From contig NC_019693.1 in NCBI RefSeq assembly GCF_000317105.1, forward strand, positions 3,967,227-4,031,226: DNA of 64,000 nucleotides, written 5' to 3'. The notes under the pieces are model-generated. The model ran no database searches. It was not told where the DNA came from and saw nothing but the letters and a program-made list of their open reading frames with translations. Each line of letters begins with the position of its first letter. Position 1 is the stretch's first letter. The stretch is from Oscillatoria acuminata PCC 6304 (GTDB taxonomy: Bacteria > Cyanobacteriota > Cyanobacteriia > Cyanobacteriales > Laspinemataceae). A program made the position numbers and the translations under genes. Below are positions 1 to 63,430 of this stretch, piece after piece.

Positions 1-149
1 CTCCTCTTCTATTAATCGATGAAAGGAACAAATAATTAGGGGGAAAGGGCAAACAGTTGAGATAAACAATTATCTCTGTAACTAATGAAATATCCTACCT
101 CTCTCCTATGTGTTGGGAAGGGGACCGGATATTCAGTCAAGGGGATCAT

Positions 150-330
150 CTCAATTTTGAAAAGAGACCTAACCCCCCGGCCCCCTTCCCTAAGAGGGAA
201 GGGGGAGAAAGAGGTAAATTCCCGCTTTAAAAGCAATAAAAAAAGTTCCTTATTCTCCCTCTTTTCTTAGGAGAGTTCAGATCGGTTTTTGGGAACTCCA
301 AAAAATAAAATCTCCAAAACGTTCGTTCGT
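150..330. repeat. MITE-like palindromic element, degenerate right end. Left end 'tctcaattttgaaaagagacctaaccccccggccc', internal hairpin 'cccccttccctaagagggaaggggg'.
   Basis: Near-identical to the element at 63225-63430, which has both TIRs 'gacctaacccccc' and 'ggggggttaggtc'. The same hairpin core recurs at 585-640, 705-760, 28480-28540 and 51040-51130. Confidence 0.6.
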
Positions 331-334
331 AGGA

Positions 335-415
335 TCAACGGTGTAGCCCCGTCAATGTAGGGGCGCAATGCGCAGGCCCTTGGGGCGCAATGCTTGCGCC
401 CCTACAAATAGATAC
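335..415. repeat. GC-rich nested hairpin element. 'ggggcgcaatgc' occurs twice. Hairpin 'ggggcgcaa tgc ttgcgcccc' is flanked by 'gtagggg...cccctac'.
   Basis: Perfect 9-bp stem seen directly. It shares 'gtagcccc' and 'gcgcaggc' with the REP-like elements at 21598-21656, 21766-21818 and 43683-43740. Confidence 0.45.
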
Positions 416-544
416 CTTCCTTTCAGTTGAACGGTTGGATGATTTATATTTTGCAATCCCCTTTAGGCAAAATTGAGATGCTCCCGAGTCAAACTCTTTA
501 TCAAAAAATTAAACGGGTTAGGCGGGTTCGATAATATCAAATCT

Positions 545-10093: not shown

Positions 10094-10106
10094 ATTGGGG
10101 TGGTGA

Positions 10107-28383: not shown

Positions 28384-28427
28384 CGGTAAGGGATAAAATG
28401 ACTAATTTAGGCTAAATTTAAGGGAGC

Positions 28428-28566
28428 ATCTCAATTTTGCCTACCAACCGAATTGACCTCTCCCCCCTACCCCCCTCCCCTGCAAGGGGAGGGGGAAATT
28501 TATGTCTTTCTCCCCCTTCCCTCGTAGGGAAGGGGGCTGGGGGGTTAGGTCTCTTTTCAAAATTGA
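28428..28566. repeat. MITE-like element copy ('gacctctcccccctacccccctcccctgcaaggggaggggg...cccccttccctcgtagggaagggggctggggggttaggtctcttttcaaaattgagatc')
   Basis: Same family as 150-330, 51000-51150 and 63225-63430. Its right end supplies the last codons and stop of the decarboxylase gene. Confidence 0.65.
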
Positions 28567-30188
28567 GATCCTCCCAAATTCAATTGGGTAGCGAGGGCAA
28601 TTTGGTCGTCTAATACCGCATCGATATCGGCTTCAGTGGTGAGGGGATTGGCAAGGGCGGCCCGTAATGCCACGATCGCCATCGGTCCATATCGAGTGGT
28701 CTGAGTAATCGTGCGGGCGATAAACGTTTTTCCCGCGTGACGTTGGGCTTTTTGTAGCTGTTCGTTGACTAAATCAATGGCTTGATTTTGGGTTTCGGTT
28801 AACTCTCCTTTAGCGACAAATTCTCGCAATTGTTCGGGAATGTAACGATAAATCAGCAGATTAATTTCCGGTTCGGCTAACAGTTCAAATTCCGGACTTA
28901 AGCGAACCTGTTCAGCCATATACTGAGTTTTGCGAATCCCTTCATCAATTAAAAATTCATAGCCTTTCAGCCCGATCGCGTGCAAGCCAGCGTGCAGAAA
29001 CAGGGACATAGCAGGGCGCGACCCTTCTAGCGATCGCTGACCCAAATCTGCCGACCCTTCCCGGACTGTATAACAGGCGTGTTTTTCGATTGCTTTTGCC
29101 AGTTGGGGGTTCTGGAACATCACCATACCAATTCCCATCGGTGCATACAGTTGTTTGTGAGCATCGATTGTGACCGAATCCGCCTGTTCAATTCCTGCTA
29201 ACTTATGGCGATGTTGTTGGGAAAAGATTAACGGTCCTCCCCAAGCGGCATCAACGTGAAAATGTACCCCCGCTGCTTGGGCGATCGCTGCCATTTCTTC
29301 TATGGGGTCGATTCCCCCTGAGTCGGTGGTTCCGGCAATGCCAACAATGGCGATAATATGTTGCTTTTGGGCGCGACATTCGGCAACGGTTTCCCGCAGG
29401 CAGTCCAAATCAATTCGGTTGTGGCGACTGGCAGGAATTTTAATTAATCCTTGACTGCCTATTCCTAATAAATCCGCTGCCTTTTCAAAAGAATAGTGCA
29501 TCAAACTCGACCCGATAATCACTTGTCCTTGGTATCCATAGAACTCCAAAGCAGCAGCTAACCCTTCTTTTTCAATGCCTTTAAAATCACCCTTCGGCCC
29601 CAATGAGCTATTACGGGCGCACCAAATTGCGGTGAAATTAGCGCTAGTTCCCCCGGAAACCACCATCCCCAGAGTGCTATGGGAATTTTGCAGATGGTAG
29701 TCGTAAAATTCATCGGGAAATTGATACAGCGATCGATGTAAAATGCCTAACGCTTGGCGTTCATAAGGGGTAAAGGCTTTCGCGGTTTCTGTCTTCACCA
29801 AATTTTGATTCAATGCCGTCATTAGTTTAGCGAGGGGACGCATAAAATGAGGCAATGCTGAGGTCATGTGACCGATAAAACGAGGAGATGAAGTATGAAT
29901 AGAATGGGGAATGAGGGTTTTTGTTAAACTCTCCAAGTAAGTATCAAAACTTGAGGCATCATCTGGGAGGTGAAACTCCTGAAATTGAGCCATCAAATCA
30001 GGAAGCTCAATGTCGCTGCTGGCTTCAATTTGGCGCAAAAATTGATAGGCAATTTTTAAAATTTGTTGATCAACATTTTTTTCCCAGTTTTCCGCCTGGG
30101 GTGAGGGGTCAAAGAGGCTGAGGATAGTCCCTTCAATAGAAGGATTCCAAGTCTCAATAGAGGAATTAACGGGATGAATTTGAAGCAT
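28557..30188 (-). CDS. PLP-dependent group II amino-acid decarboxylase (glutamate/DABA decarboxylase-like)
   Basis: 543 aa, 'HVDAAWGGP', 'DAHKQLYAPMGIGMV' (PLP lysine region), 'SGGTSANFTAIWCARN'. Confidence 0.75.
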   Translation of the reverse strand: MLQIHPVNSSIETWNPSIEGTILSLFDPSPQAENWEKNVDQQILKIAYQFLRQIEASSDIELPDLMAQFQEFHLPDDASSFDTYLESLTKTLIPHSIHTSSPRFIGHMTSALPHFMRPLAKLMTALNQNLVKTETAKAFTPYERQALGILHRSLYQFPDEFYDYHLQNSHSTLGMVVSGGTSANFTAIWCARNSSLGPKGDFKGIEKEGLAAALEFYGYQGQVIIGSSLMHYSFEKAADLLGIGSQGLIKIPASRHNRIDLDCLRETVAECRAQKQHIIAIVGIAGTTDSGGIDPIEEMAAIAQAAGVHFHVDAAWGGPLIFSQQHRHKLAGIEQADSVTIDAHKQLYAPMGIGMVMFQNPQLAKAIEKHACYTVREGSADLGQRSLEGSRPAMSLFLHAGLHAIGLKGYEFLIDEGIRKTQYMAEQVRLSPEFELLAEPEINLLIYRYIPEQLREFVAKGELTETQNQAIDLVNEQLQKAQRHAGKTFIARTITQTTRYGPMAIVALRAALANPLTTEADIDAVLDDQIALATQLNLGGSQF

Positions 30189-45900: not shown

Positions 45901-48663
45901 CCCTAGTTCTCCTGGGCGATCGCTCGTCACATAAGCAACTAAACGCTTTTCCCCGCCTTCTTCCCGCGCCACAACCACGGCATCGCGGACCGCAGGATGT
46001 TCACTCAGAACGGATTCAATCTCACCTAATTCAATCCGAAATCCGCGAATTTTGACTTGATAATCCCGGCGTCCGACAAATTCGATTGTGCCATCGGGGA
46101 GATAGCGAGTTAAGTCCCCAGTTTTATACAGTTTGCCATCTGGGTGATAGGGGTCGGGAATAAATTTTTCAGCCGTGAGTTCCGGGCGATTAAGGTACCC
46201 TTGCCCGACGCCCCAACCCCCGACATACAGTTCCCCCGTCACCCCAATGGGGACAGGCTGCTGAAACTCATCCAGGATATAGAGTTGAGTATTGGCGATT
46301 GCGCGTCCCAGTGGCACAATTTGTATCCCCTCACTCAGGGTATCCGGGATTGGATAGGTGGCAACAATCCCGCAGGTTTCCGTTTGTCCGAACATATTGA
46401 TAAACTGTGCCGGATGCTGGAACTCCTGCCGCCAAATTTGAGGCAAATCGGACCGTAAGGGTTCGCTGGCAGAGACAATCAGGCGCAAATTATTCACCAA
46501 CAGGTGCGATCGCCCTTGTGCCTCTAAGTGACTCAAGGCATAAGTGCTATTCCGCCAAAATGACGGGACAATATCAATGACAGTCACATTTCGGTCCTTG
46601 ACTTCCTGGAACAGGGCGAGGGGGTCTTGCCGCTGTTGTGAGGTGGCAATATTCACCGTTGCCCCTGCTGCCAAGGGGACCATCAACTGTCTAACGGAGG
46701 AGGAAAAGGCGATGGAAGCGGTATGCAGGTAAATGTCATCCCTTTGGATACCCAAAGCATGACCCATCGCCTGTACATAGTGGCAAAGGTTGCGATGGCT
46801 GATTTTCACCCCTTTGGGTTTGCCCGTAGAACCAGAAGTATAAATAATGTAGGCAATCTCTCCCCCCGGGGTAGTCGCATTTTCTGCGGATTGGGCAGCA
46901 ATGGCATCCCTGTCGCTATCGAGACAGACAATTTTTGCCGGAATTTCTGACAGTTCTGCGGTCAAACTAGCCTGAGTGAGTAAAACTGAAGGTTGGGCAT
47001 TTTCTAACATGAACCCTAGTCGTTCTTTCGGATAGGCTGGGTCCAGGGGAACATAAGCCGCCCCTGCTTTGAGGATGCCTAAAATTGCGACAACCATTTC
47101 CAGCGATCGCTCTAAATACAGTCCGACTAAATCCTGAGAATTTACCCCTAATTGTTGTAAGTAACCCGCCAATTGATTGGCGCGGGCATTGAGTTCGCCG
47201 TAGGTTAGGGTTTCCTGACTAAAAATTAGAGCAATTTTATCTGGGGTAGCCGTTGCTCGTTCTTCAATAAATTGATGAATCGTCTCGTAACCGTTATAAT
47301 CCCGATGGGTTGCATTAAATTGAACTAACAACTGATGCCGTTCAGTTTCGGTTAAAAGATTGAGCTGAGACAGGGGCTTTTCAGGTGTCGCAATAATGCT
47401 TTCTAATAAGCAAATCAGTTGGTTACCGAATCGCTGAATCGTCTCTATTTGAAACGCATTGGTATCATAGTCAAAGACTAGAATTAAACCCTCTTTGTCC
47501 GGTTGAACTGAGAGTTTTAGCTTAAAGCGACTGCCAACCCACCAAGGGCGATCGCAAGTCAAGGAAAGCTGCGAATCCCCGTAGGTTTGCGCCTTGCTTC
47601 GCCCTTCAAAAGCCAGAGGGAAAAACGGTGCCGTTTCTGGGGGTAATCCCGATAGAGTTTCCCAAGTAAAATACTCCTGCCACTTTTCCCCTTCTGCGAC
47701 TGCCTGATGCACCACCGGCAGAATTCCTGCAAAAGTTGCCGATTCTCCTGCGGAATAATTTAGGGGTAAAACTTTAGCAAAAGCACCTATTGCCGTTGAT
47801 AATTCTGCGTATTTTCGACCCTCTGCTAAAACGCCAATGGTAAAAGTTTCCTGTCCCGTGAATCTTTGGATTAAACCTAGCCAAGCGGTTAACAAAACCG
47901 TTTGAGTTTTAACTTCATAGTTGTCAGCAAATTGAGCAATTTTTTCGGTTAATTCTCCCGAGAGTTTTACTGCATAATCTTGAGGCTGAAATCTCGAAGA
48001 ATTTCCCTCCAGTTCCCCGGGCAATTTCAGGGTTCCTAGACCCGCAACCTCTAGTTGACGCCAATAATTAGCCCCAATTTCGGTTTCTGGCGATTCTAAT
48101 AATTGATTTTGCCATTCGGCTAAATCCGCATATTGCAAGGGTTCATCAGATAAGGTTTCCCCTTGACAAATTGCCCGATAAGTAGTGGCAATTTCTGACC
48201 CTAAATTCTCCAGAGATTGAGCATCGGCACAAACTGCCGGTAAGCGAATTATTAATACAGACTGTTCCACACCTAGGGAAACCCAGGCGGCGTGAAATAA
48301 TGGCCCTTGTTCCCAATTAAAGGGCTGTTGTCCGATTTCCTGGATGTAAGCGGCAAGTTTACTGTCCCTGTCTTCCGGTAAACAGGAACTTAAATCTAAG
48401 GGGTCATGCCATTGGAACTCCCCTGTCGTAATTGCTTGAACCGGCAGGGTCATTCCCGGTAGACAGGGAAAGGTGGTCCGCAGGATTTCATGGCGTTGTA
48501 TGACAGTGCCGATCGCGGTTTTTAAAATCCCAGAATCGCACTTTCCGGCAATCTGCACCATTCCCTGACAACAATAGGCAAAGTTATCAAGCTGTTGCAG
48601 TTGCCACACCTGTTTTTGCTGGGGAGAAAGTCGAAACCCCTCAATCTCGTTGATCATGCTCAA
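39922..48663 (-). CDS. NRPS, 2913 aa: HH-less C-like domain, then A-T-C-A-T-C, then a fused TauD/TfdA-family Fe(II)/2OG dioxygenase domain
   Basis: N-terminal C-like domain with 'IIRLPAVCADAQS' in place of HHxxxDG. A1 ('IAYIIYTSGSTGKPKGV', A4 region 'IAFSSSV'). T. C 'HHIVSDGWS'. A2 'LAYIIYTSGSTGRPKGV'. T. Third C domain with intact 'HHIIADGWS' (~41915-41940). C-terminal ~336 aa TauD-like domain (39925-40935; 'GGILFRNFG', 'HNE...H', 'AHSRNPF'). The stop overlaps the next gene's ATG by 11 nt. Confidence 0.85.
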   Translation of the reverse strand: MSMINEIEGFRLSPQQKQVWQLQQLDNFAYCCQGMVQIAGKCDSGILKTAIGTVIQRHEILRTTFPCLPGMTLPVQAITTGEFQWHDPLDLSSCLPEDRDSKLAAYIQEIGQQPFNWEQGPLFHAAWVSLGVEQSVLIIRLPAVCADAQSLENLGSEIATTYRAICQGETLSDEPLQYADLAEWQNQLLESPETEIGANYWRQLEVAGLGTLKLPGELEGNSSRFQPQDYAVKLSGELTEKIAQFADNYEVKTQTVLLTAWLGLIQRFTGQETFTIGVLAEGRKYAELSTAIGAFAKVLPLNYSAGESATFAGILPVVHQAVAEGEKWQEYFTWETLSGLPPETAPFFPLAFEGRSKAQTYGDSQLSLTCDRPWWVGSRFKLKLSVQPDKEGLILVFDYDTNAFQIETIQRFGNQLICLLESIIATPEKPLSQLNLLTETERHQLLVQFNATHRDYNGYETIHQFIEERATATPDKIALIFSQETLTYGELNARANQLAGYLQQLGVNSQDLVGLYLERSLEMVVAILGILKAGAAYVPLDPAYPKERLGFMLENAQPSVLLTQASLTAELSEIPAKIVCLDSDRDAIAAQSAENATTPGGEIAYIIYTSGSTGKPKGVKISHRNLCHYVQAMGHALGIQRDDIYLHTASIAFSSSVRQLMVPLAAGATVNIATSQQRQDPLALFQEVKDRNVTVIDIVPSFWRNSTYALSHLEAQGRSHLLVNNLRLIVSASEPLRSDLPQIWRQEFQHPAQFINMFGQTETCGIVATYPIPDTLSEGIQIVPLGRAIANTQLYILDEFQQPVPIGVTGELYVGGWGVGQGYLNRPELTAEKFIPDPYHPDGKLYKTGDLTRYLPDGTIEFVGRRDYQVKIRGFRIELGEIESVLSEHPAVRDAVVVAREEGGEKRLVAYVTSDRPGELGRELRQFASQRLPDYMIPSTFAVLDSFPLTPNGKVNRQALPTPEELQGQSEAIAPRTPVEELLAGIWAQLLQRHPISREDNFFEVGGHSLLVTQLVSQIRDTFGVELPLRSLFETPTLAQLADCIETSLAAGEKLDIPEIVPVSKTGAVPLSFSQERLWFLEGLEPGTYNSAAAVRLQGQVNIPALEESFNEIARRHDTLRTRFVEGEGCVIQEIMPEVRITLPVISCEESQVPSLAVAWVQQPFDLTQPPLVRLTLFQLQPDEFILLFVIHHIVSDGWSMGVLIQELGTIYGAYSTGRISPLPALAVQYADFVLWQRQWLNQARLGAQMDYWKRQLGGDLPGLDLPTDYPRPGVQSFRGATQSLTLPIELSEALNTLSQQSGVTLYMTLLAAFQTLLYRYSGQSDIRVGTPIANRNRGEIEGLIGCFVNTLVLRTDLSGTPSFRELMGRVREVALGAYAHQDLPFEQLVEALQPSRTLSHSPIFQVMFVLQNAPMAELELPGLRLNLLELDSKKSRFDLTLAIAQTRQGLLATLEYSTDLFEAGTISRMLGHFQTLLESAVAGPDARISEMPMLTANEQAQLLHQWNDTAAEYPETACIHELIEAQVAKTPDAVAAVFEGQSLTYQELSDRASQLAQYLQSIGVQRNQAVALYVDRSLEMLVGLLGILKSGAAYLPLDPALPGDRLQYMLEHSQAGVILTQQHLISTLPSHQARVVCLDAMNPHPGRVGLYEQSPPARAEDLAYIIYTSGSTGRPKGVQLRHRSVVNFLTSMKREPGITCGDRLLAVTTLIFDIAALELFLPLTVGACVIIASREVATDGQQLASLLDSQQITVMQATPSTWRMLIESGWQGRPQLKILCGGEALPRLLADELCNRAGSVWNLYGPTETTIWSTLYPVTPGEETVSIGRAVANTQIYLLDQALQPVPVGIPGDLYIGGAGLAAGYLHQPELTSEKFIPSPFAENPEVKLYKTGDVARYRPDGTLEYIGRVDNQVKIRGFRIELGEIESVLAKNPEVRQGVVIAREDTPGDTWLVAYVVLHPQAEPNSSQWRQLLKQQLPDYMIPAAFVVLDTLPLTPNGKIDRKALPAPSRQGKEAHIAPATPLEQQLTEIWAQVLGLEQVGVEENFFELGGHSLLATQLISRIPHTFQVELPLRSLFESPTVREFASRISGATVTASFPLMPVSRNQNLPLSFAQQRLWFLEQLEPGTATYNIPAVLRLTGNLDEAALEASLNAVIDRHEALRTSFPAIDGQPIQAIAPQLRVNIVTLDLSEVASEDWEAEGVKTAVAESLKPFDLEQLPLLRVTLIQHEGDRLLVLVLHHIIADGWSMGVLIREIATLYDAFSTGKSVALPELPIQYADFAVWQRHVLQGEILEHKLAYWKQQLGGTLPVLNLPGSRSQLPISSRKGATYTFQIPAEVARGVQVLSHQENVTLFMTLLAGFQTLLYRYTQCDDVVVGTDLANRSSLETEGLIGFFINLLVLRTNLSGNPSFRELLTRVKQVTLDAYAHQDVPFEKLVETLRPDRQSTANPLFQVLFVLQNAPMPPLELSGLTLEPVAVDTGIARFDIALFLTETESGIAGKWQYNADKFEEGAIVKFSHHFVTLLSNISTQSDSRLDALDFIPESEREQQAMQKQARKSLKLKTFKAVQAQTVDLSPERLINTEYLTPGETFPLVITPRVSELDAVEWATHNREFIQTQLQQHGGILFRNFGLQTPGNFEQFAQGICPQLFGEYGDLPREGISGKVYGSTPYPADKAILFHNESSHLHCWPLKIWFFCAQPAQEGGETPIVDCRKVYQYLNPQIREKLAQKQLMYVRTFTEGLDVSWQEFFHTDERAVVENYCNQAGIRCQWLPDNGLRTEKIQPAIAKHPQTGEWVFFNQILLHHIGCLDVSVRESLLSLFGENKLPRNVYYGDGSAIEEETIAEIATLYENLAVTFSWQQGDVVMLDNMLAAHSRNPFVGPRKIVVAMGEMVQRADIQFPVMEEAHAQ
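43683..43740. repeat. REP-like double-hairpin element lying in-frame inside the A2 domain coding sequence
   Basis: 'agcccgcgcaggcgggctttgttcgtatagccccacccttccagggtgcgggtt' is ~90% identical to the intergenic 21766-21818. On the minus strand it encodes 'PHPGRVGLYEQSPPARAE' just upstream of core motif A3. Confidence 0.6.
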
Positions 48664-48722: not shown

Positions 48723-49775
48723 TTACAAGTTTTGGGAAAACAATTCTGACATCCCGACAACGATTTTCCTGGGTCCTGAAAAGGGTTGTCGTCCGTGGGC
48801 TGTCAGCATATTATCTAACATTAGAATATCTCCGGTTTCCCAGGGAAATAATACCGTTTCTGCCCGATAAGCGGCGCGGATTTCTTCTAAAACCTCGGGT
48901 TCAATGGGTGACCCGTCTCCATAATAAGTATTATGGGGTAAATCCTCTTCAGAAAATGCCTTTAATAACGCCTCTCGAATCGGGGGTTCCAAGGTGGATA
49001 CATGGAAGAATACCCCATGATTAAACCAGACAGCTTCCCCGGTAATAGGATGGTGGGCGATCGCCTGCCGGACTTGACGGGTACGCAGGCGATTTTGCCC
49101 TTTCCATTCCCACTCTATCCCATTTTTGCGACAAAAATCTACCACTTGGGAGGTATTTTCTGTTTGGAATACAGTTTGCCAGGGCAACCCAAACCCATCG
49201 CCAAAATTGCGGACATACATCACCTGTTTTTCAGCAAAACGGCGGCGAATTTCAGGGGGAATCCGTTGCAATAACTTGCGGGTGTCGGCGATAGGAGTTT
49301 CGCCTCCTTCTGTGGGGGGAATCAAACAGCAAAAGAAGATTTTTAAGGGCCAACTGGCTGCATAAGAGTTCTCGCTATGGAGAAAAATGGTTTGATTCGC
49401 GGGATGATCCGTCGAGGTATAAATATTACCATTGACGGGACTCCGAGGGGATGAGCGATCGCGATAATCCAGCAACTCCCCCGATACGGTTTGAATCAAC
49501 TCCTCAAACTCTTCCACATCCCGAATCCCAAAGTTTCGGAATAGAATGCCCCCATGTTTTTGCAACGCCGTTTGAATAAAATCTCGGTTTGTATTCGCCC
49601 AAACGGTTAAATTCACCCCCTCGATTTGGGGCTGAATTAACAAAGGTAAAGACTGGTCCAAAAACATCGGCTTGGCTTCGACCAATTTGGTCGTTTCCAC
49701 GCTAACGGAACGCCGTTTGACGGCACCGAATGTCGTTAGATTAGGAGTGGAGGAGTCTGAAAATTTCATGACCAC
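48723..49775 (-). CDS. Standalone TauD/TfdA-family Fe(II)/2-oxoglutarate dioxygenase (SyrP-like amino-acid beta-hydroxylase)
   Basis: 350 aa, paralogous to the fused C-terminal domain of the 2913-aa NRPS ('GGILFRNFG', 'HSENSYAASWPLKIFF', 'GGETPIADTRK', 'LDNMLTAHGRQPF'). Confidence 0.8.
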   Translation of the reverse strand: MVMKFSDSSTPNLTTFGAVKRRSVSVETTKLVEAKPMFLDQSLPLLIQPQIEGVNLTVWANTNRDFIQTALQKHGGILFRNFGIRDVEEFEELIQTVSGELLDYRDRSSPRSPVNGNIYTSTDHPANQTIFLHSENSYAASWPLKIFFCCLIPPTEGGETPIADTRKLLQRIPPEIRRRFAEKQVMYVRNFGDGFGLPWQTVFQTENTSQVVDFCRKNGIEWEWKGQNRLRTRQVRQAIAHHPITGEAVWFNHGVFFHVSTLEPPIREALLKAFSEEDLPHNTYYGDGSPIEPEVLEEIRAAYRAETVLFPWETGDILMLDNMLTAHGRQPFSGPRKIVVGMSELFSQNL

Positions 49776-49782
49776 AGGAGGG

Positions 49783-52700
49783 CTAAACTGTACGGGTTGC
49801 TTGCCGTTTGGTGAGCTTTAGTTTTTGTAAGCTAACGGCTTGTAAAGATTCGGCTTGGCGTTGTCGTTGTTGATGGCAACTGCCATAAACGTTTAATTCA
49901 GTTAATCGCAGGTGAGGTTGAGTCACAACTTGGTGCAATACCCCTTCATAATCCTCAACCATCTGGGCTATTGTCTCTGGGTTAAATAAATCCGTTTGAT
50001 ACTCAAAGGACCCTTTAAATCCCGCTGGATCGTCCCAAATACTGACCTTTAAATCAAACTTGGAAGTCCCTAAATCAACTTCCTGGGACTCAAAACTGAG
50101 TCCAGGAATTTCCACCGTGGGAATCGGCGCGTTTTGCAGAATAAACATCACCTGGAATAACGGATTATAACTTAAATTTCGTTCCGGCTGCAACTCTTCC
50201 ACTAATTTATCAAACGGTAACGCCTGATGAGCATAAGCCCCCGATGCTACAGCCCGGACTCGCTGCAAAACTTCTCTAAAATTGGGATTTCCTGACAAAT
50301 CAGTTCGTAAAACGAGAGTATTAATAAAAAAGCCAATTAATCCTCTAGTTTCAGGCTTTTCCCGCCCTGCTACCGGCGAACCGACTGCAATATCCTCTTG
50401 CTGACTGTAACAGCATAACAGGATTTTAAACCCTGCCAACAGGGTCATAAATAAGGTGACTTCTTCTTGGCGATTCAACTCCCGAACTGCCTCAGACAAG
50501 GTGGGAGAAAATTGGAAAAAGCACTTTTGACCGGCAAAGGTGGGAATTTCAGGACGAGGGCGATCGCAAGGTAAGTTCAACCGAGATAAATTCCCCTGAA
50601 GTTGCTGCTTCCAGTAATCTAATTCCCGTTGTAATCCCTCAGTTTGTAGCTGTTGCCGTTGCCATGCCGCAAAATCAGCATATTGGATGGGTAAGTTTCC
50701 TAAATTCGGGGCTTGACCCGCTGTCAATGCTTCATAAATGGCGGCAATTTCGCGCACCATGACCCCAACGGACCAGCCATCAGAAATAATATGATGGAGG
50801 ACAATCGATAAACAATGGCGCTGGTCCTGAACTCGGAATAAATGGACTCGCAATAAAGGCGCTTGCGAGAGATTAAACGGGGTTTTAGCTTCCTGTTGCA
50901 ACCGGGTGGATACTTCCGTTTCCAATACCTCAGAGATTGGCAATTTTACCGTTACCGGGAGCATCTCTATTTGTCCTAAAAACAAGTGGGACCTCTCCCC
51001 CCTGCCCCCCTCCCCTACAAGGGGAGGGGGGAATAAATCTCTTTCTCCCCCTTCCCTCTTAGGGAAGGGGGCTGGGGGGTTAGGTCTTTCTCCCCCTTCC
51101 CTCGCAGGGAAGGGGGCTGGGGGGTTAGGTCTCTTTTCAAAGTTGAAATCCCCCCCCATCACCGAGGCTTGAATCTGCTGAATGGGCCGCCCTTTAACTT
51201 CTGGAAATCCAGTCCTCAACCCTTCGTGACGGTTCACCAATTCTTGGAGGCTGGACTCTAAAATCTTGGTGTCCAGTTTCCCGACAATATTCAGGCAAAA
51301 TGCCACATTATAAAACGGATTTCCCGGTTCCAAGCGGTCCAAAAACCATAACCGTTCCTGGGCGAGTCCCACGGGCAATTCTGCCGTGCGAGAAACAGGC
51401 TCAATTGGGTCAATCGGCTGCTGAGTTTCCAGCAGATTGTCCGCTTTTTGGGCCAACTCTACTAAACTGATACCCTCGAAAAAGTCTACTACATCAATGT
51501 TGACACCCCATGCTAATTCAAGCTGATTTTTGAGGTCAAATGCCATCAACGAATCGAGTCCAAACCGACTGAGGGGCTGTTTCGGGTCAATGTCTACAAC
51601 CGAAACATTCAATAAGCTAGAGACTCGGCTGGTTAAATCAGCAATTAGCTCAGTTTGTCGCTGTTCCGGTGCAAGGTTGAGTAGACTTTCTCGGTCCCAA
51701 TTTTTCTCTAATTTCCCGGACATTGATGACGCTACCAGACTTTGATCCACCACTTGCAGTTCACCATTAAGGAAGCGATCGCGACAGGCACGGCGTTGAA
51801 TTTTTCCACTCGAAGTTTTGGGAATCGTACCCGGTTTAATCAGCACAACTCCATACACTTGCACCTCAAATTCCTCTGCGACTGCCTGCCGAATAGCGGC
51901 GATCGCCTCGGATAAATTCGGTTTAGCGCGAAACTCCAATTCTTGCACCACCACCAGCCTTTCTTCCCCTGCCACCTCCACGGTAAAAGCAGCAGTTCCC
52001 GTCAACCGAAATGCCCGATGACTCGACTCCGTAGCGCGTTCGATATCCTGGGGATATAAATTACGTCCCCGAATCAGAATTAAATCCTTAACCCGACCCG
52101 TAATATACAGTTCCCCATCCTCTAGGAAACCCAAATCCCCGGTGCGTAAAAATGGCCCTTCTCCACTGTCAGCCAGGAATGCTTGAAATGTATGACGACT
52201 CTCTTCCGGACGATTCCAATAGCCTTGGCAGACACTGGGTCCAGACACCCACACTTCTCCCACTTCGTTCCCTGCACAACGAGCACCCGTTTCCGGATGG
52301 GCGATCGCAATCTGCATATCCGGAACCGCAGAACCACATCCCACCAAGGTTACAGCATTTTCCCCTGAGTCCGAATCGGTAATCTGATTCCGTTCAAATG
52401 CACCTTTATCGATCGCCTTCCAAGGATAGGGAACCGATGTCATACTCCCCGACACCATCAACGTTGTTTCTGCCATCCCATAACAGGGATAAAAGGCTTC
52501 CGGTTGAAATCCACAGTCCGCAAAGGCTTCCTGAAATCGCACTAACGTCTCATGGCGAATCGGTTCAGCGCCATTAAATGCCACCTGCCACCGACTCAAA
52601 TCCAGGGTTGCCTTTTGTTCCGGCGTAATCTTACTCACACATAAGTCATAGGCAAAATTAGGTGCACCACTTGTCGTCCCCCCATAATCGGAAATCGCTT

Positions 52701-53475
52701 TCAGCCAACGATAGGGACGTTGTAGAAACGAAGCCGGAGACATTAACGTGCAGGGAAAACCCCCATAAAGGGGCTGTAAAATCCCCCCAATCAGTCCCAT
52801 ATCGTGATACGTTGGTAGCCACGAAATAAATTGACTCTCAGGATGATGATCCATCACTTTGTAGGTAATTGCCGCATTATGCAGCAAGTTCCCCTGGGAT
52901 ACCATCACCCCTTTTGGCGTTCCCGTAGAACCCGAGGTGTATTGCAAAAAAGCTAAACTGTCTGACGTAACCCCCGGATCCTGCCATTGGCTGTCCAACG
53001 CTGGATCTAACCGATCCGTACACACCCATTGCAACCCACTCCCTGCTGTTTTTTCGCTCAACAAGGATTGAACTTGGGCTGCAATTTGGCTGGTAGTGAG
53101 GGCGACTGCTGCTTTTGCATCTGCCAAGACTGCCAAAATTCTCGGTGTATTACGCTGATTTCGGGGCGGATAGGCAGGAACGGCAACAACTCCGGCATAC
53201 AGGCAGCCGAAAAAGGCAATCAAATAGTCGAGTCCCGGAGGATACAGCAGTAATGCCCGTTCCCCACCCAACCCCATTGCTTGCAATTGAGCGGCGATCG
53301 CCCGACTGCCTCGGTCTAATTCCCGATAGGTAAGGGTTTCCCCAAGGATTTCCCCATCGATTAAAAACCGAAAAGCGAGATTATCCGGCTGTTGGATTGC
53401 TCTCCCGCGCAGGATTTCTACAAAAGTAGAACAACGGCGATCGAGTTGTGGAACGGTGTACTCTGCGTAATTCAT
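49783..53475 (-). CDS. Lipoinitiation protein: fatty acyl-AMP ligase (FAAL) - ACP - condensation domain
   Basis: FAAL N-terminus 'LTYRELDRGSRAIAAQLQAMGLGGERALLLYPPGLDYLIAFFGCLYAGVVAVPAYPP', 'YTSGSTGTPKGV'. ACP 'LSRFGLDSLMAFDL'. C domain 'LWFLDRLEPGNPFYN', 'RHEGLRTGF', 'HHIISDGWS'. The C domain carries a ~55-aa Pro/Gly-rich insertion encoded by a repeat element. Confidence 0.85.
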   Translation of the reverse strand: MNYAEYTVPQLDRRCSTFVEILRGRAIQQPDNLAFRFLIDGEILGETLTYRELDRGSRAIAAQLQAMGLGGERALLLYPPGLDYLIAFFGCLYAGVVAVPAYPPRNQRNTPRILAVLADAKAAVALTTSQIAAQVQSLLSEKTAGSGLQWVCTDRLDPALDSQWQDPGVTSDSLAFLQYTSGSTGTPKGVMVSQGNLLHNAAITYKVMDHHPESQFISWLPTYHDMGLIGGILQPLYGGFPCTLMSPASFLQRPYRWLKAISDYGGTTSGAPNFAYDLCVSKITPEQKATLDLSRWQVAFNGAEPIRHETLVRFQEAFADCGFQPEAFYPCYGMAETTLMVSGSMTSVPYPWKAIDKGAFERNQITDSDSGENAVTLVGCGSAVPDMQIAIAHPETGARCAGNEVGEVWVSGPSVCQGYWNRPEESRHTFQAFLADSGEGPFLRTGDLGFLEDGELYITGRVKDLILIRGRNLYPQDIERATESSHRAFRLTGTAAFTVEVAGEERLVVVQELEFRAKPNLSEAIAAIRQAVAEEFEVQVYGVVLIKPGTIPKTSSGKIQRRACRDRFLNGELQVVDQSLVASSMSGKLEKNWDRESLLNLAPEQRQTELIADLTSRVSSLLNVSVVDIDPKQPLSRFGLDSLMAFDLKNQLELAWGVNIDVVDFFEGISLVELAQKADNLLETQQPIDPIEPVSRTAELPVGLAQERLWFLDRLEPGNPFYNVAFCLNIVGKLDTKILESSLQELVNRHEGLRTGFPEVKGRPIQQIQASVMGGDFNFEKRPNPPAPFPAREGGERPNPPAPFPKREGGERDLFPPPLVGEGGRGERSHLFLGQIEMLPVTVKLPISEVLETEVSTRLQQEAKTPFNLSQAPLLRVHLFRVQDQRHCLSIVLHHIISDGWSVGVMVREIAAIYEALTAGQAPNLGNLPIQYADFAAWQRQQLQTEGLQRELDYWKQQLQGNLSRLNLPCDRPRPEIPTFAGQKCFFQFSPTLSEAVRELNRQEEVTLFMTLLAGFKILLCCYSQQEDIAVGSPVAGREKPETRGLIGFFINTLVLRTDLSGNPNFREVLQRVRAVASGAYAHQALPFDKLVEELQPERNLSYNPLFQVMFILQNAPIPTVEIPGLSFESQEVDLGTSKFDLKVSIWDDPAGFKGSFEYQTDLFNPETIAQMVEDYEGVLHQVVTQPHLRLTELNVYGSCHQQRQRQAESLQAVSLQKLKLTKRQATRTV
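50989..51152. repeat. MITE-like element (partially duplicated) lying in-frame within the condensation-domain coding sequence
   Basis: 'gacctctcccccctgcccccctcccctacaaggggagggggg...cccccttccctcttagggaagggggctggggggttaggtc' x2 '...tcttttcaaagttgaaatc'. It closely matches the intergenic copy at 28428-28566. It translates to 'EKRPNPPAPFPAREGGERPNPPAPFPKREGGERDLFPPPLVGEGGRGERS' between the C2 and C3 (HHxxxDG) motifs. Confidence 0.7.
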
Positions 53476-55545: not shown

Positions 55546-58185
55546 TTGAGAGTTGAATCGTTCTTGCCCGGAGTATTGTTATCGGGTGCAACTGTATTGG
55601 TATTGGCTTCTCCAGCGACTGCCCAAGTCGTAGAAGTAACCGGAGTGCGAGTGGAATCTACCTCCACTGGGTTACAAATTATCTTGGAAACAACCGGCGA
55701 TCGCGTTCCCCAAGTCTTTACCTCTAGTTTTGGTGAGACCACAATTGTTGACATTACCAACACTCAACTGCGATTGACCCAGGGGAGTTCCTTTCGCCAG
55801 GACAACCCTGCCGAGGGAATCGAGTCAATCGCCGTCACGAGTTTAGATTCCAACAGCATTCGCCTCACCGTTACCGGAACTAGCGCAATGCCAATGGTAC
55901 AGGCAACTGACCCGGCGAATCCACTCACCTTTGAAGTGATGACCTCGACGGATGTTGCCGAGGACCCCTTCCCAGATAGTGAACCCGAAGCCGTTCCTGA
56001 ACCTGAAACGCCTACCACATCAGAGACTCAAGAAGACTCCCTTCCAGAGATTGAACCCGAAGTGGTTCCCGACCCTGAAACGCCTACCACACTAGAGACT
56101 CAAGCGGATCAGGAACTGGATATCCTAGAAATTATTGTCACCGCCACGCGAACGGCTGAACGGTTGATTAAAGTGCCGCGATCGATCACCGTCCTTGATC
56201 GCCAAGATATTGATGAGCAGACCACAGTTTCCACAGACTTGGGGGATGTTTTAGCCAAAACAGTCCCTGGATTGGGACCCCCGACCAGTGGCAGTTCCGC
56301 GAGATCCATTGTCCAAAACTTACGGGGTCGAGAGGTTGCCATTTTAATCGATGGCGTTCCCCAAACCTCCAATTACGGGCTGACTCGGGACCTTCGGATG
56401 ATCGACCCCAACATCGTAGAACGAGTGGAAGTAGTCCGAGGACCCAGCGCAATTTATGGAAGTCAGGCAACCGGGGGAGCCATTAATATCATTACCCGAA
56501 GCCCGACACAAGATGCCTTTAGCATTGATACCGGAGTCAGCTTTACAGGTTCTCTCACCCATTTATCCGATAGTATCAGCAACCGGCAATATTTCGGACT
56601 TTCGCAAAAAGAGGGAATCATTGACTATAGCGTATCTGTCGTCCGGGAAGATAATGGGGCAATTTTTGATGCGTCTGGCGATCGCATTCCCGACGTCGGT
56701 GGGGGTGGGACACTTGAGGCCCGAGAATACAGCGCTTTGGGTAAATTGGGATTAGATATCACCGATACCCAACGCCTGCAACTCACCGCCAACTATTTTG
56801 TGGGAAGGCAAGACACCAGCTATATTTCTGATCCCATTGTTCTAGAGCTAGAGGGTCGGCCAAAAGCCCGTGCTTTGAGGGCAGTTAACGGCAATTATGA
56901 AGGCACCGTTGATGCCGGAGACGAAAATTTGGTCATCAGCTTGCGCTATACCAATGATGACATTCTCGGGAGTCAATTACAAGCCCAAACCTACTACCAG
57001 GAATATACCTCAGCCATCGGTGGTACGGATTTTCGCGGTGGATTTTTTGATATCATCGCCCGTCAGCGTGCTCAAGGAGACAAATGGGGTGGGCAACTTC
57101 AAGTAGAAACACCCCTCACCTCATCAGGAAGCGCTCGTCTGCTGTGGGGAGTAGATTATGTCGATGAGAACAATGTAGCCCCTTTTGATGAATTCGACCC
57201 TGTGGCGTTTGATGAGCGCGGTGTGTTTAGAAAAATCGCCACCCGGACTTTTGTTCCGGCTTATAGTCTCAGCCAACTCGGCTTATTTGCTCAAGGTAAC
57301 TGGGATCCCACGGACTGGTTGAGACTCACTGGAGGGGTACGTCATGAACGAATTGCCCTGAGTGTTGACGATTACACCTCGTTTTTTGGAAGAGACATTG
57401 AAGGGGGCGATGTAGACTTGAACGGCACCGTATTTAATGCGGGTTCAGTGGTCAATTTAACCCCTGAGTTTGGGATATTTGCCAACTTTGCTCAAGGGTT
57501 TTCAATTCCTTCCCCTGGGGGAGTTCTTCGCAATCCTCCCGAGGATTTCAACAATGTTGGAAGGGATCTAACCATTACGGAACCCATCAAGGTGAACAAC
57601 TATGAAATCGGGGTGCGTGGACTCTGGCCACAAATCCAGGTTTCTTTGGCTGGATTTTATAACTACTCGGATTTAGGGGCAGGGTTTATCTTTGTGGATG
57701 GGATTTCTCGGCTGGTCCGTGCGCCGGAACGGAGGTATGGGGTTGAGGCAACGGCAGATTGGCAACCGGGATGGAATTTGAGCTTAGGGGGAACTCTAAG
57801 CTGGACCGAAGGAGAAAGTGACCTGGAAGATTCGGGAGATTATCTGGCGGCTTCCAGCTTTGATATTACTCCGTTAAAAGCCACAGCTTACCTCGAACAT
57901 CAAACGACGCCAAGCTGGTCAAATCGCTTGCAATTTCTCTACTCCGGTAACCGCAACCGTGCCTTTGATGATGAGGTAGACAACACTGCAATTGATGCCT
58001 ACTTTCTGGTAGACTATGTTGGCAGCATCCAACTTGGGGCAGGCACTTTAAACTTTGGGGTCGAAAATCTATTAAACGCCCAATATTTTACGGCTCAATC
58101 TCAAGTGTTGGCGGGCTTTGTTGGTACCTCTAATACCGCAGGAGAGGGGCGGACGTTAAGAATTGGGTATTCGTTGAGGTTTTAA
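55546..58185 (+). CDS. TonB-dependent outer-membrane siderophore receptor with N-terminal extension domain
   Basis: Signal peptide 'LLSGATVLVLASPATAQ'. N-terminal ~90-aa extra domain. Two tandem Pro/Glu-rich ~22-aa repeats. Plug 'IIVTATRTAERLIKVPRSITVL'. Beta-barrel ending in the aromatic C-terminus '...RIGYSLRF'. TTG start. Confidence 0.85.
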   Translation: MRVESFLPGVLLSGATVLVLASPATAQVVEVTGVRVESTSTGLQIILETTGDRVPQVFTSSFGETTIVDITNTQLRLTQGSSFRQDNPAEGIESIAVTSLDSNSIRLTVTGTSAMPMVQATDPANPLTFEVMTSTDVAEDPFPDSEPEAVPEPETPTTSETQEDSLPEIEPEVVPDPETPTTLETQADQELDILEIIVTATRTAERLIKVPRSITVLDRQDIDEQTTVSTDLGDVLAKTVPGLGPPTSGSSARSIVQNLRGREVAILIDGVPQTSNYGLTRDLRMIDPNIVERVEVVRGPSAIYGSQATGGAINIITRSPTQDAFSIDTGVSFTGSLTHLSDSISNRQYFGLSQKEGIIDYSVSVVREDNGAIFDASGDRIPDVGGGGTLEAREYSALGKLGLDITDTQRLQLTANYFVGRQDTSYISDPIVLELEGRPKARALRAVNGNYEGTVDAGDENLVISLRYTNDDILGSQLQAQTYYQEYTSAIGGTDFRGGFFDIIARQRAQGDKWGGQLQVETPLTSSGSARLLWGVDYVDENNVAPFDEFDPVAFDERGVFRKIATRTFVPAYSLSQLGLFAQGNWDPTDWLRLTGGVRHERIALSVDDYTSFFGRDIEGGDVDLNGTVFNAGSVVNLTPEFGIFANFAQGFSIPSPGGVLRNPPEDFNNVGRDLTITEPIKVNNYEIGVRGLWPQIQVSLAGFYNYSDLGAGFIFVDGISRLVRAPERRYGVEATADWQPGWNLSLGGTLSWTEGESDLEDSGDYLAASSFDITPLKATAYLEHQTTPSWSNRLQFLYSGNRNRAFDDEVDNTAIDAYFLVDYVGSIQLGAGTLNFGVENLLNAQYFTAQSQVLAGFVGTSNTAGEGRTLRIGYSLRF

Positions 58186-63100: not shown

Positions 63101-63224
63101 AAAAATGATTCAGAGAAAGCAGCATTAGCCGGTTACCGAAGTTAAATTTTCGCTTCAGTTTTAAAATATTGTTATTTCTAATGGATGGTCTAACTTTCAA
63201 TTACATCAAACAGAAATTCAGAGA

Positions 63225-63430
63225 GCATCTCAATTTGAAAAAGAGACCTAACCCCCCAGCCCCCTTCCCTACAAGGGAAGGGGGAGAAAGACATAAATTC
63301 CCCCCTCCAGCAATAAAAAAATTTCCTTATTCTCCCTCTCCTCTTAGGAGAGGGCCGGGGAGAGGTGGGAAGGGGGGAGGGGGGTTAGGTCAGACTGGTT
63401 TTTAAGAAAAATTGAAATGCTCCCAAAAAT
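63225..63430. repeat. Complete MITE-like element with terminal inverted repeats
   Basis: Left 'catctcaatttgaaaaagagacctaaccccccagcccccttccctacaagggaaggggg', right 'ggggggaggggggttaggtcagactggtttttaagaaaaattgaaatgctccc'. Internal 'agcaataaaaaaatttccttattctccctct' shared with the copy at 150-330. Confidence 0.7.

What the first reader, a model, noticed from the sequence alone, without database searches (positions are those of the whole stretch)
50989..51152. A ~165-bp MITE-like palindromic element sits in-frame inside the condensation-domain coding sequence of the FAAL-ACP-C gene
The element, complete with its 'ttgaaaagagacctaacccc' terminus and two hairpin cores, also occurs intergenically at 28428-28566, 63225-63430 and elsewhere. 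At this locus it lies between the C2 ('RHEGLRTGF') and C3 ('HHIISDGWS') motifs and is translated without any stop as a ~55-aa Pro/Gly/Arg-rich insert ('KRPNPPAPFPAREGGERPNPPAPFPKREGGER...'). Either the loop tolerates a disordered insertion, so the gene is still functional, or the initiating C domain is compromised. In either case, a mobile palindromic repeat has colonised an NRPS catalytic domain while preserving the reading frame. The same element type translates to similar low-complexity peptides in the spurious small ORFs at 85-270 and 63169-63405.
Basis: seen in the sequence. Interest (0 to 1): 0.7.

Follow-up and report, generated by a model that had tools for sequence, protein, structure and literature searches.

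The report
Transposon fragment tolerated inside NRPS enzyme
A small non-autonomous transposon (MITE) landed in frame inside the condensation domain of a cyanobacterial siderophore-type peptide synthetase, and the enzyme has stayed under strong purifying selection since, so this is a well-documented case of a known phenomenon, not a new kind of system.

Summary
It is a 199-bp MITE at 50957-51155, with 18-bp terminal inverted repeats and an 8-bp target-site duplication, adding 207 bp or 69 codons. It sits between motifs C2 and C3 of the FAAL-ACP-C gene (49783-53475, minus strand) of Oscillatoria acuminata (100% identical protein in the database).

Four orthologues at 90-95% identity have the empty site GGTAACGG. 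Oscillatoria sp. HE19RPO carries the same insertion at the same site, with a perfect duplication and one extra 45-bp hairpin module (84 codons). This excludes an assembly artefact and dates the insertion to the common ancestor of the two strains.

Since then the condensation domain has evolved at dN/dS of about 0.10. On the window's own branch there are 13 synonymous and 2 non-synonymous changes. The gene is therefore still in use.

AlphaFold predicts the insert to be disordered, between two confidently predicted strands. The MITE family is otherwise intergenic and shows no bias towards lengths divisible by three, so this is a chance survivor and not a Rickettsia-RPE-style coding repeat.

One point is unexplained: the insert core diverges about ten times more slowly than neighbouring neutral DNA.

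It is a new member of a known kind, of moderate interest.

The parts
49783..53475 (-). Host gene: FAAL (AMP-binding) - ACP - condensation domain protein, 1230 aa, 100% identical to a protein named for Oscillatoria acuminata
   Evidence: ORF list and translation. Pfam hits AMP-binding, PP-binding and Condensation, with the Condensation hit split into two stretches by the insert. 100% match to P0001 on a 7.69-Mb contig.
50957..51155 (.). The MITE copy itself, 199 bp: a standard 154-bp element plus one extra 45-bp hairpin module
   Evidence: Aligns end to end with copies at 28422-28575, 63221-63424 and 142-485. Absent from orthologues L001, L002, L029, L030 and L031.
50949..50956 (.). Target-site duplication, copy that still equals the empty-site sequence (CCGTTACC; GGTAACGG in gene sense)
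   Evidence: The empty site in orthologues is GCCTC(A/G)GTAAC(G/A)G. HE19RPO has CCGTTACC on both sides of the element.
51156..51163 (.). Target-site duplication, diverged copy (CCATCACC; 6 of 8 match)
   Evidence: The HE19RPO allele keeps the perfect copy, so the two changes are derived in the window's lineage.
50957..50974 (+). Terminal inverted repeat, GGGAGCATCTCTATTTGT (family consensus GGGAGCATCTCAATTTTG)
51138..51155 (-). Second terminal inverted repeat, degenerate in this strain (CAAAGTTGAAATCCCCCC against consensus CAAAATTGAGATGCTCCC)
   Evidence: Most of the 6 window-specific differences in the first 21 nt of the insert (gene sense) fall here; the first two lie in the adjoining duplication copy.
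51035..51124 (.). Two tandem 45-bp hairpin modules, with hairpin cores at 51048-51070 and 51093-51115. Each encodes RPNPPAPFPxREGGE. HE19RPO has three.
   Evidence: the repeat finder family D17, spacing 45. Hairpin cores. Module-number difference between the two strains.
51007..51029 (.). Third hairpin core, CCCCTCCCCTACAAGGGGAGGGG
   Evidence: Paired in the RNA minimum-free-energy fold.
50956..51162 (-). The 207 nt (69 codons, residues 772-840) that are extra relative to orthologues, translated as VMGGDFNFEKRPNPPAPFPAREGGERPNPPAPFPKREGGERDLFPPPLVGEGGRGERSHLFLGQIEMLP
   Evidence: AlphaFold pLDDT below 50 and no secondary structure over model residues 185-248.
51205..51231 (-). Condensation motif C2, RHEGLRTGF (aa 749-757), upstream of the insert
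50776..50796 (-). Catalytic motif C3, HHIISDG (aa 894-900), intact, 54 residues after the insert
28422..28575 (.). Reference 154-bp copy of the same MITE family (duplication AAATTTAA / AAATTCAA), inside the same gene cluster
63221..63424 (.). Another full copy of the family (204 bp), in the opposite orientation
142..485 (.). Another full copy (344 bp) with extra nested palindromic DNA

Best explanation
A roughly 154-bp non-autonomous DNA transposon (MITE) transposed into the codon boundary after residue 771 of the FAAL-ACP-C gene. The MITE family has 18-bp terminal inverted repeats and 8-bp target-site duplications, and exact matches to its end were found only in genomes named or placed with the genus Laspinema and in two cyanobacterial metagenome bins.

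The event happened in the common ancestor of the window's strain (Oscillatoria acuminata; its PCC 6304 strain is called Laspinema acuminatum in a recent preprint) and Oscillatoria sp. HE19RPO.

The ORF stayed open for two reasons. The 154-bp subtype plus its 8-bp duplication adds 162 bp, or 54 codons, and this subtype has no stop codon in the orientation and phase it landed in.

The added Pro/Gly/Arg/Glu-rich peptide sits between two beta-strands of the N-terminal lobe of the condensation domain, 54 residues before the catalytic HHxxxDG. It is predicted to be disordered, and the enzyme still works.

Later gain or loss of the 45-bp (15-codon) hairpin module in place produced the 69-aa allele (window) and the 84-aa allele (HE19RPO).

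Shown: the insertion event, family membership, frame preservation, sharing by two lineages, and purifying selection afterwards. Inferred: the transposase that moved it, the surface location of the loop, and continued production of the lipopeptide.
For: - Empty versus filled site: five orthologues (74-95% aa identity, 1159-1165 aa) lack exactly the 69 residues, and two of them were read at DNA level and show a single GGTAACGG-type site.
- Transposon anatomy: terminal inverted repeats are shared with intergenic copies. The flanking 8 bp match perfectly in 11 of 21 elements with both ends found, across the window and 5 other genomes.
- Independent confirmation: HE19RPO contig NZ_JAMXOT010000089.1 (L016) has a 244-bp copy at the identical site and orientation, with a perfect CCGTTACC duplication, inside an intact ORF that gains 84 aa.
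- Phylogeny: the window and HE19RPO are each other's nearest relatives (p-distance 0.051, against 0.068-0.074 to the nearest uninserted orthologue). In the part 3' of the insert, shared-derived sites are 14:2:2 in favour of window + HE19RPO.
- Selection after insertion: between the two insert-bearing alleles the C domain has 41 synonymous and 13 non-synonymous differences, dN/dS 0.10, binomial p = 2e-16. The window branch alone has 13 against 2 (p = 3e-7). Uninserted pairs give 0.14.
- Neutral peptide: within the insert dN/dS is about 1.2.
- Structure: AlphaFold pLDDT is below 50 with no secondary structure over the insert, and the flanking strands are confident. Solved C domains have only about 10-14 residues here. 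71 homologues have 33-49 residues in the surrounding segment, against 104 in the window.
- Chance, not design: (length + 8) mod 3 is 6:5:4 across copies. The 154-bp subtype is usually stop-free in this one frame.
- Cluster state: the catalytic HHIISDG motif and all downstream NRPS ORFs in the cluster are intact.
Against: - No expression, protein or metabolite data exist. Function is inferred from substitution patterns only.
- The gene has a mosaic history: the 5' FAAL part gives 9:13:7 for the three groupings. Some low-dN/dS divergence could therefore have been imported by recombination from uninserted alleles.
- The AlphaFold model is mediocre overall (mean pLDDT 69, TM 0.3-0.4 to solved PCP-C didomains). 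The position of the loop relative to the carrier-protein docking sites could not be determined.
- Only two insert-bearing genomes were found.
- No autonomous element with matching inverted repeats was found.
- The insert core is much more conserved than neutral DNA, which simple 'tolerated junk' does not predict.
Confidence: 0.82

Rival explanations
1. The insertion crippled the starter condensation domain. The gene, and hence lipo-initiation of the siderophore, is non-functional in this strain, and the open frame is only a relic.
For: A 69-aa insertion lies 54 residues from the catalytic motif, in a segment that has 33-49 residues in 71 homologues against 104 in the window. MITE and IS insertions in cyanobacterial NRPS/PKS genes are known mainly as inactivating events, for example in mcy genes (reviews read). 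No expression data exist.
Against: The C domain has dN/dS of 0.10 between the two insert-bearing lineages. There are 13 synonymous against 2 non-synonymous changes on the window branch and 22 against 6 on the HE19RPO branch. The ORF is intact in both lineages after about 15% synonymous divergence and one 45-bp indel that kept the frame. The HHxxxDG motif and all downstream NRPS ORFs are intact.
Confidence: 0.06
2. The insert has been co-opted and is maintained for a function of its own. It could act as a structured mRNA element affecting translation or transcript stability inside the operon, or as a flexible proline-rich loop of variable length used for docking with the trans-acting downstream module or the TauD-type hydroxylase.
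For: The insert core has 4 differences in about 186 aligned nt between the two lineages. Gene dS is about 0.15 and the adjacent spacer differs at 0.185. There is 1 change among 130 predicted paired positions and 3 among 56 unpaired positions. The RNA fold is -119.7 kcal/mol, z = -5. The module number varies in frame.
Against: All four core changes are non-synonymous, and dN/dS within the insert is about 1.2, so no selection on the peptide is seen. The conservation has other possible causes: hairpin-templated self-correction, gene conversion from paralogous copies, or a short recent recombination tract in a gene that does recombine. No promoter-like or terminator-like site is present and no Rfam family reaches its threshold. 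The four closest orthologues (90-95% identity) have intact ORFs without it.
Confidence: 0.1
3. The element is an assembly artefact: a repeat collapsed or misjoined into the gene.
For: The element is a multi-copy repeat, the kind of sequence that assemblers mishandle.
Against: An independently sequenced and assembled genome (HE19RPO, L016) has the element at the same nucleotide position with a perfect duplication. The junctions create a clean 8-bp duplication of the empty-site sequence and keep the frame.
Confidence: 0.01
4. The 69 residues are genuine, conserved protein sequence, and the intergenic repeats merely resemble them.
For: None beyond the open reading frame.
Against: The segment is absent from the 5 orthologues compared closely and from 71 homologues. 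An exhaustive HMMER search with the family peptide against 1.84 billion representatives gave 23 hits, mostly ORFs of 53-150 aa over repeats, or repeat arrays. The word-index search gave 5 tiny ORFs. The DNA has inverted repeats and a target-site duplication.
Confidence: 0.01

Closest known systems
Rickettsia palindromic elements (RPEs; Ogata et al. 2000 and 2002, as summarised in PMC10969869 and PMC1779305)
   Same: Both are palindromic repeats of about 100-200 bp found inside protein-coding genes in frame, adding a peptide while the host gene stays intact. In both cases the insertion is shared by related species (for example the RPE-7 insert in PheT of all Rickettsia, PMC1779305).
   Different: RPE families are characterised by a high proportion of in-frame genic copies and a conserved encoded peptide. 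Here 20 of the 21 elements recovered with both ends (two of them the orthologous genic insertion) lie outside long ORFs. Lengths show no bias to multiples of three (6:5:4), and most copies have stops in most frames. This element has classical inverted repeats and 8-bp duplications.
Cyanobacterial MITEs (Nezha, MaeMITEs, Anabaena PCC 7120 MITEs; PMC3184786, PMC10969869)
   Same: They share the size range (about 120-350 bp), terminal inverted repeats, target-site duplications, strong predicted secondary structure, and empty/filled sites between related genomes. ORF fusions with chromosomal genes have been reported for the Anabaena MITEs.
   Different: This appears to be a different sequence family. 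Exact matches to its end were found only in Laspinema-group genomes and two cyanobacterial metagenome bins. Sequence similarity to Nezha and the other named families was not tested. No autonomous partner has been identified. Here the genic copy is internal to a catalytic domain and is shown to be followed by purifying selection.
MITE and IS insertions in microcystin synthetase genes of Anabaena and Planktothrix (Fewer et al. 2011, cited in PMC3184786 and PMC10969869; PMC4766695)
   Same: A mobile element inserted into a cyanobacterial NRPS/PKS gene, polymorphic among related strains.
   Different: Those insertions inactivate toxin synthesis. This one preserves the frame and the gene remains constrained.
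REP/REPIN-type extragenic palindromes (PMC3116915, PMC3733652)
   Same: The 45-bp hairpin module (invariant 10-11-bp G+C stems, variable 3-4-nt loop, conserved tail GGGGGGTTAGGTC) also occurs on its own (586-629, 707-750) and in tandem arrays (10091-10570). It behaves like a REP-like unit nested in the MITE.
   Different: No RAYT-type transposase association or GTAG/CGTC tag was tested for this module. In the finding it is part of a MITE bounded by inverted repeats.

Membership tests
MITE (miniature inverted-repeat transposable element) | Small (under about 500 bp), with no transposase gene | tested here: met
   The genic copy is 199 bp. Other copies are 123-344 bp with stops in most frames.
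MITE (miniature inverted-repeat transposable element) | Terminal inverted repeats | tested here: met
   GGGAGCATCTCAATTTTG and its reverse complement lie at the ends of the copies in the window and in L003-L028. In the window's genic copy one repeat is degenerate, but it is intact in the HE19RPO allele.
MITE (miniature inverted-repeat transposable element) | Target-site duplication of fixed length | tested here: met
   The duplication is 8 bp: 8 of 8 matching in 11 of 21 elements, 7 of 8 in 3 more. At the genic site it is perfect in HE19RPO and 6 of 8 in the window.
MITE (miniature inverted-repeat transposable element) | Many dispersed copies in a genome | tested here: met
   There are 4 full copies in this 64-kb window. 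There are 27 exact matches to a 25-base end pattern in 26 stretches of 5 other genomes. The complete source genome could not be scanned.
MITE (miniature inverted-repeat transposable element) | Empty and filled sites at orthologous positions | tested here: met
   Five orthologues lack the segment, and two alleles are filled.
MITE (miniature inverted-repeat transposable element) | A cognate autonomous IS with the same inverted repeats | tested here: inconclusive
   No pair of inverted repeats enclosing 0.5-4 kb, other than adjacent separate MITEs, was found in the window or the fetched loci. Whole genomes were not available.
RPE-like protein-coding palindromic repeat | A large fraction of family members inserted in frame within ORFs | tested here: not met
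   Only one orthologous locus (window and L016) lies inside a long ORF, out of 21 elements with both ends found. The exhaustive peptide search found mostly short spurious ORFs.
RPE-like protein-coding palindromic repeat | Element length and sequence adapted to translation (multiple of three, open frame) | tested here: not met
   (length + 8) mod 3 is 6:5:4. The gene's frame is stop-free in only 5 of 21 copies, although the 154-bp subtype usually is and 154 + 8 = 162.
RPE-like protein-coding palindromic repeat | The insert lies outside the folded core and the host protein keeps its function | tested here: inconclusive
   The insert is predicted disordered and lies between two confident strands. 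dN/dS of 0.10 after the insertion argues for retained function. There is no biochemical test, and the global model is poor.
Lipo-initiation (starter) condensation domain | C domain directly downstream of FAAL-ACP, with an intact HHxxxDG | tested here: met
   Pfam domain order is AMP-binding, PP-binding, Condensation. HHIISDG is at aa 894-900.
Lipo-initiation (starter) condensation domain | Placement in the starter-C phylogenetic subtype and demonstrated acyl transfer | not tested
   No subtype phylogeny or assay was done. The best solved-structure matches are ordinary PCP-C and C-A fragments.

The most novel reading that the evidence does not exclude
The MITE-derived segment is no longer passive. 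Its hairpin-forming core has been held almost unchanged (1 change in 130 predicted paired positions) while neighbouring neutral DNA diverged by 15-18%, and its 15-codon module number varies in frame between species. It would then be a domesticated element, acting either as an mRNA structure inside the operon or as a tunable flexible loop on a trans-acting starter condensation domain.
Probability: 0.1. Interest if true: 0.65.

Novelty: new member of a known kind. Interest (0 to 1): 0.42.

Why it matters
This case has a complete evolutionary record. The empty site, two filled alleles, the duplication, the age of the event and the selection afterwards are all documented. Together they show that a catalytic NRPS condensation domain can absorb a 69-84-residue disordered insertion between two beta-strands close to its active-site motif and remain under constraint.

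That is useful in three ways:
- The site is a candidate permissive site for engineering or tagging condensation domains.
- It is a caution for genome mining: a repeat inside a biosynthetic gene does not by itself mean a dead cluster.
- It is a non-Rickettsia example of transposon DNA becoming protein sequence.

The slow evolution of the inserted hairpins is a small open question about how palindromic repeats persist.

Tried and rejected
- **Word-index protein search with the 69-aa insert.** It gave only 5 tiny ORFs and did not even return the host protein, so it is weak as a negative result. An exhaustive HMMER scan with the 50-aa standard translation replaced it. That gave 23 hits, mostly short ORFs, and no set of conserved proteins with internal inserts.
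- **Metagenome scan for the gene/MITE junction ATAGAGATGCTCCCGGTAAC.** It gave three hits, all unrelated sequence, so no further filled alleles were found.
- **Rfam at a permissive threshold.** Only generic hairpin hits to miRNA models appeared, far below their gathering scores.
- **Promoter and terminator scan of 50700-51400.** Nothing was found.
- **Search for an autonomous element bounded by the same inverted repeats.** Only adjacent separate MITEs were found.
- **Comparison of an orthologous intergenic MITE pair, L003 and L025.** The aim was to see whether MITE cores generally evolve slowly. The two genomes differ by only about 2% in the flanks, so the test has no power.
- **AlphaFold model to place the loop relative to the carrier-protein docking sites.** Local confidence is informative, but the global geometry is unreliable (TM 0.3-0.4), so no claim is made.
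- **'Designed' in-frame element.** Rejected on length and stop-codon statistics.
- **Shared variant inverted repeat (CTCTATTTGT) as proof of a single event.** Dropped, because the encoded ending SDWFLGQIEMLP also appears in an unrelated short ORF (P0130). The single-event inference rests on identical site, orientation and duplication.
Full report
**What is in the sequence**

The window carries a long minus-strand ORF, 49783-53475, of 1230 aa. Pfam finds AMP-binding (FAAL-type), PP-binding and Condensation domains, and the Condensation match is split into two stretches. The protein is 100% identical to a database protein that NCBI names as from Oscillatoria acuminata, on a 7.69-Mb contig. Strain PCC 6304 of that species is called Laspinema acuminatum in a recent preprint.

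Between motif C2 (RHEGLRTGF, aa 749-757) and the catalytic motif C3 (HHIISDG, aa 894-900) lies a Pro/Gly/Arg/Glu-rich stretch. Its DNA is a G+C-rich multi-hairpin repeat. The hairpin core occurs 34 times in the window against 0 in shuffles, and the tail GGGGGTTAGGTC 12 times against 0.5.

**True boundaries**

Aligning the genic copy with the copies at 28422-28575, 63221-63424 and 142-485 shows shared terminal inverted repeats, GGGAGCATCTCAATTTTG and its complement. The element is 50957-51155 (199 bp).

Protein alignment with the closest orthologues (P0002-P0005, 90-95% identity, 1159-1161 aa, and P0006 at 74%) shows that they lack exactly 69 residues, 772-840. At DNA level, two orthologues read there have GCCTC(A/G)GTAAC(G/A)G once. 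The window has GGTGATGG, then the 199-bp element, then GGTAACGG. This is an 8-bp target-site duplication, 6 of 8 matching, plus the element, or 207 bp in total.

The genic copy equals the standard 154-bp element plus one extra 45-bp hairpin module. The tandem modules are at 51035-51079 and 51080-51124 (D17).

**It is a MITE family**

A scan of one genome per species for a 25-base end pattern found 27 matches in 26 stretches of five genomes:
- Phormidium pseudopriestleyi FRX01
- Laspinema palackyanum D2a
- Oscillatoria sp. HE19RPO
- an Oscillatoria metagenome-assembled genome
- an uncultured cyanobacterium

FRX01 and L. palackyanum group with PCC 6304 in the genus Laspinema.

Where both ends could be located, elements are 123-344 bp, with common sizes near 154 and 207 bp. 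Eleven of 21 have perfect 8-bp flanking duplications. No autonomous partner was seen in the DNA available.

**A second, independent filled allele**

One of the hits, L016 (Oscillatoria sp. HE19RPO), is the orthologous gene. It carries a 244-bp copy at the identical position and orientation. It has a perfect CCGTTACC duplication and a consensus inverted repeat at the end that is degenerate in the window. It lies inside an intact ORF that gains 84 residues: three RPNPPAPFPxREGG modules instead of two. This excludes an assembly artefact.

The two insert-bearing genes are each other's closest relatives. Their nucleotide p-distance is 0.051, against 0.068-0.074 to the nearest uninserted orthologue and about 0.10-0.12 to the others. 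In the region 3' of the insert, shared-derived sites favour window + HE19RPO by 14:2:2. The 5' FAAL part is mosaic (9:13:7), which indicates recombination among these lineages.

The simplest history is one insertion in the common ancestor of the two alleles, followed by gain or loss of one 45-bp module.

**Is the domain still in use?**

All divergence between the two insert-bearing C domains accumulated after the insertion.

| Comparison | Synonymous | Non-synonymous | dN/dS | p |
|---|---|---|---|---|
| C domain, window vs HE19RPO (426 codons) | 41 | 13 | 0.10 | 2e-16 |
| C domain, window branch only | 13 | 2 | about 0.05 | 3e-7 |
| C domain, HE19RPO branch only | 22 | 6 | about 0.08 | 7e-10 |
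| C domain, uninserted orthologue pairs | | | 0.14 | |

These figures come; branch changes were polarised with the nearest uninserted orthologue. The catalytic motif and all other NRPS ORFs of the cluster are intact. Within the insert dN/dS is about 1.2, so the peptide itself is not under selection.

One caveat applies. Because the gene recombines, part of the low-dN/dS divergence could have been imported from uninserted alleles.

**Structural context**

An AlphaFold model of residues 590-1230 was built with 72 aligned sequences and has mean pLDDT 69. It gives pLDDT below 50 and no secondary structure for model residues 185-248, which lie within the insert (model 183-251). Confident strands lie on both sides, at 174-179 and 258-260.

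HMMER alignments to solved C domains break at the insert, and those structures have only about 10-14 residues there. In 71 homologues the surrounding segment is 33-49 residues, against 104 here.

The global model superposes poorly on solved PCP-C didomains (TM 0.3-0.4). I therefore make no claim about how close the loop lies to the carrier-protein docking sites.

**Chance or design?**

Across family members, (length + 8) mod 3 is 6:5:4, and most copies have stops in most frames. The 154-bp subtype, however, is usually stop-free in exactly the orientation and phase found in the gene, and 154 + 8 = 162 is a multiple of three. About one in six insertions of that subtype into a gene would therefore keep the ORF open.

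All other elements recovered with both ends lie outside long ORFs. An exhaustive peptide search found mainly short spurious ORFs.

This is a chance survivor filtered by selection. It is not an RPE-style coding repeat. RPEs are described as frequently in frame in genes.

**Unexplained observation**

Between the two lineages, the spacer upstream of the gene differs at 18.5% (85 of 460 sites) and synonymous sites at about 15%. The insert core has only 4 differences in about 186 aligned nt: 1 among 130 predicted paired positions and 3 among 56 unpaired positions, including two in hairpin loops.

In contrast, 6 differences cluster in the first 21 nt of the insert in gene sense. These are the window's diverged duplication copy and inverted repeat, at 51140-51163.

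Candidate causes are hairpin-templated self-correction, conversion from paralogous copies, selection at the DNA or RNA level, or a short recent recombination tract. The one orthologous intergenic MITE pair available had too little divergence to test this.

**Genomic context**

The gene heads a roughly 38-kb NRPS cluster. It is followed by a TauD-family gene, and then by an NRPS whose first C-like domain lacks HHxxxDG. It is flanked by genes for an MFS exporter, an AMIN-domain TonB-dependent receptor and iron-siderophore ABC transport.

This resembles the FAAL-NRPS, beta-hydroxy-aspartate 'cyanochelin-like' siderophore clusters described in recent preprints. That assignment is an inference and was not tested.

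**Comparison with the literature**

In-frame insertion of palindromic repeats into genes is known from Rickettsia RPEs and from ORF fusions of Anabaena MITEs. MITE and IS insertions in cyanobacterial NRPS/PKS genes are known as inactivating events. I found no report of a MITE retained inside a condensation domain under purifying selection, but the full-text library searched is incomplete.

**Verdict**

The open question it left is resolved in favour of a tolerated insertion. This is a new member of a known kind, of moderate interest.

Noticed in passing
window 28422-28575 and ORF 28557-30188(-): The 154-bp MITE copy inside the same gene cluster overlaps the 3' end of a PLP-dependent decarboxylase ORF. 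It supplies the ORF's last six codons (LGGSQF) and its stop codon, so it is a second fusion of a MITE with a coding sequence in this cluster. It also lies between two co-directional cluster genes.
   Followed up: partly
window 51140-51163 compared with L016: Six of the ten differences between the window and HE19RPO within the insert fall in 21 nt, covering the diverged duplication copy and the adjoining inverted repeat. HE19RPO keeps the consensus, so the window's end is derived and probably no longer recognisable by a transposase.
   Followed up: partly
window 50975-51137 (insert core) compared with L016: The hairpin-forming core differs at about 2% between the two lineages, while the adjacent spacer differs at 18.5% and synonymous sites at about 15%. 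Only one change falls at a predicted paired position.
   Followed up: partly
window 10091-10570: Three tandem 150-nt units built from the same hairpin modules fill the gap between convergent genes for a WD40-repeat protein and a histone-deacetylase-family protein. Solo modules without MITE ends lie at 586-629 and 707-750, just downstream of ORF 759-2456(-). The 45-bp module therefore behaves as a unit of its own.
   Followed up: no
window about 340-410 (inside the MITE at 142-485); L003 1040-1095 against L025: A different palindromic doublet beginning GTAGGGGCGCAATGC... and ending ...GCATTGCGCCCCTAC is nested inside some MITE copies. It is the most variable part between two otherwise about 98% identical orthologous loci. 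It looks like a GTAG-tagged REP doublet.
   Followed up: no
window 39922-48663(-) and 48723-49775(-): The NRPS downstream of the TauD-family gene starts with a C-like domain that has a C2 motif but no HHxxxDG before its first adenylation domain. This resembles the hydroxylase 'interface' domains of beta-hydroxy-aspartate siderophore pathways. Together with the AMIN-domain TonB receptor at 55546-58185, the cluster looks cyanochelin-like.
   Followed up: partly
gene 49783-53475 compared with L001 and L016: The phylogenetic signal is mosaic. The FAAL half groups the window with the uninserted orthologue about as often as with HE19RPO (9:13:7), whereas the C-domain half is 14:2:2. This indicates homologous recombination within the gene among Laspinema lineages.
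   Followed up: partly
P0007 (orthologue, alignment A2 columns about 369-405): A more distant orthologue carries its own low-complexity insertion of about 35 aa (WASQVKGEEGKGKGNALPLPLTFNLSPDNQP...) in the FAAL domain. It may be another repeat-derived in-frame insert.
   Followed up: no
P0133 and P0144 (hits of the exhaustive peptide search): The module peptide (PNPPAPFPxREGG) also appears as a tandem C-terminal extension of an ABC-transporter ATPase. It also flanks both ends of a 237-aa protein. The hairpin module therefore also turns up in at least two proteins of unknown source that are not translations of the TIR-bounded MITE.
   Followed up: no
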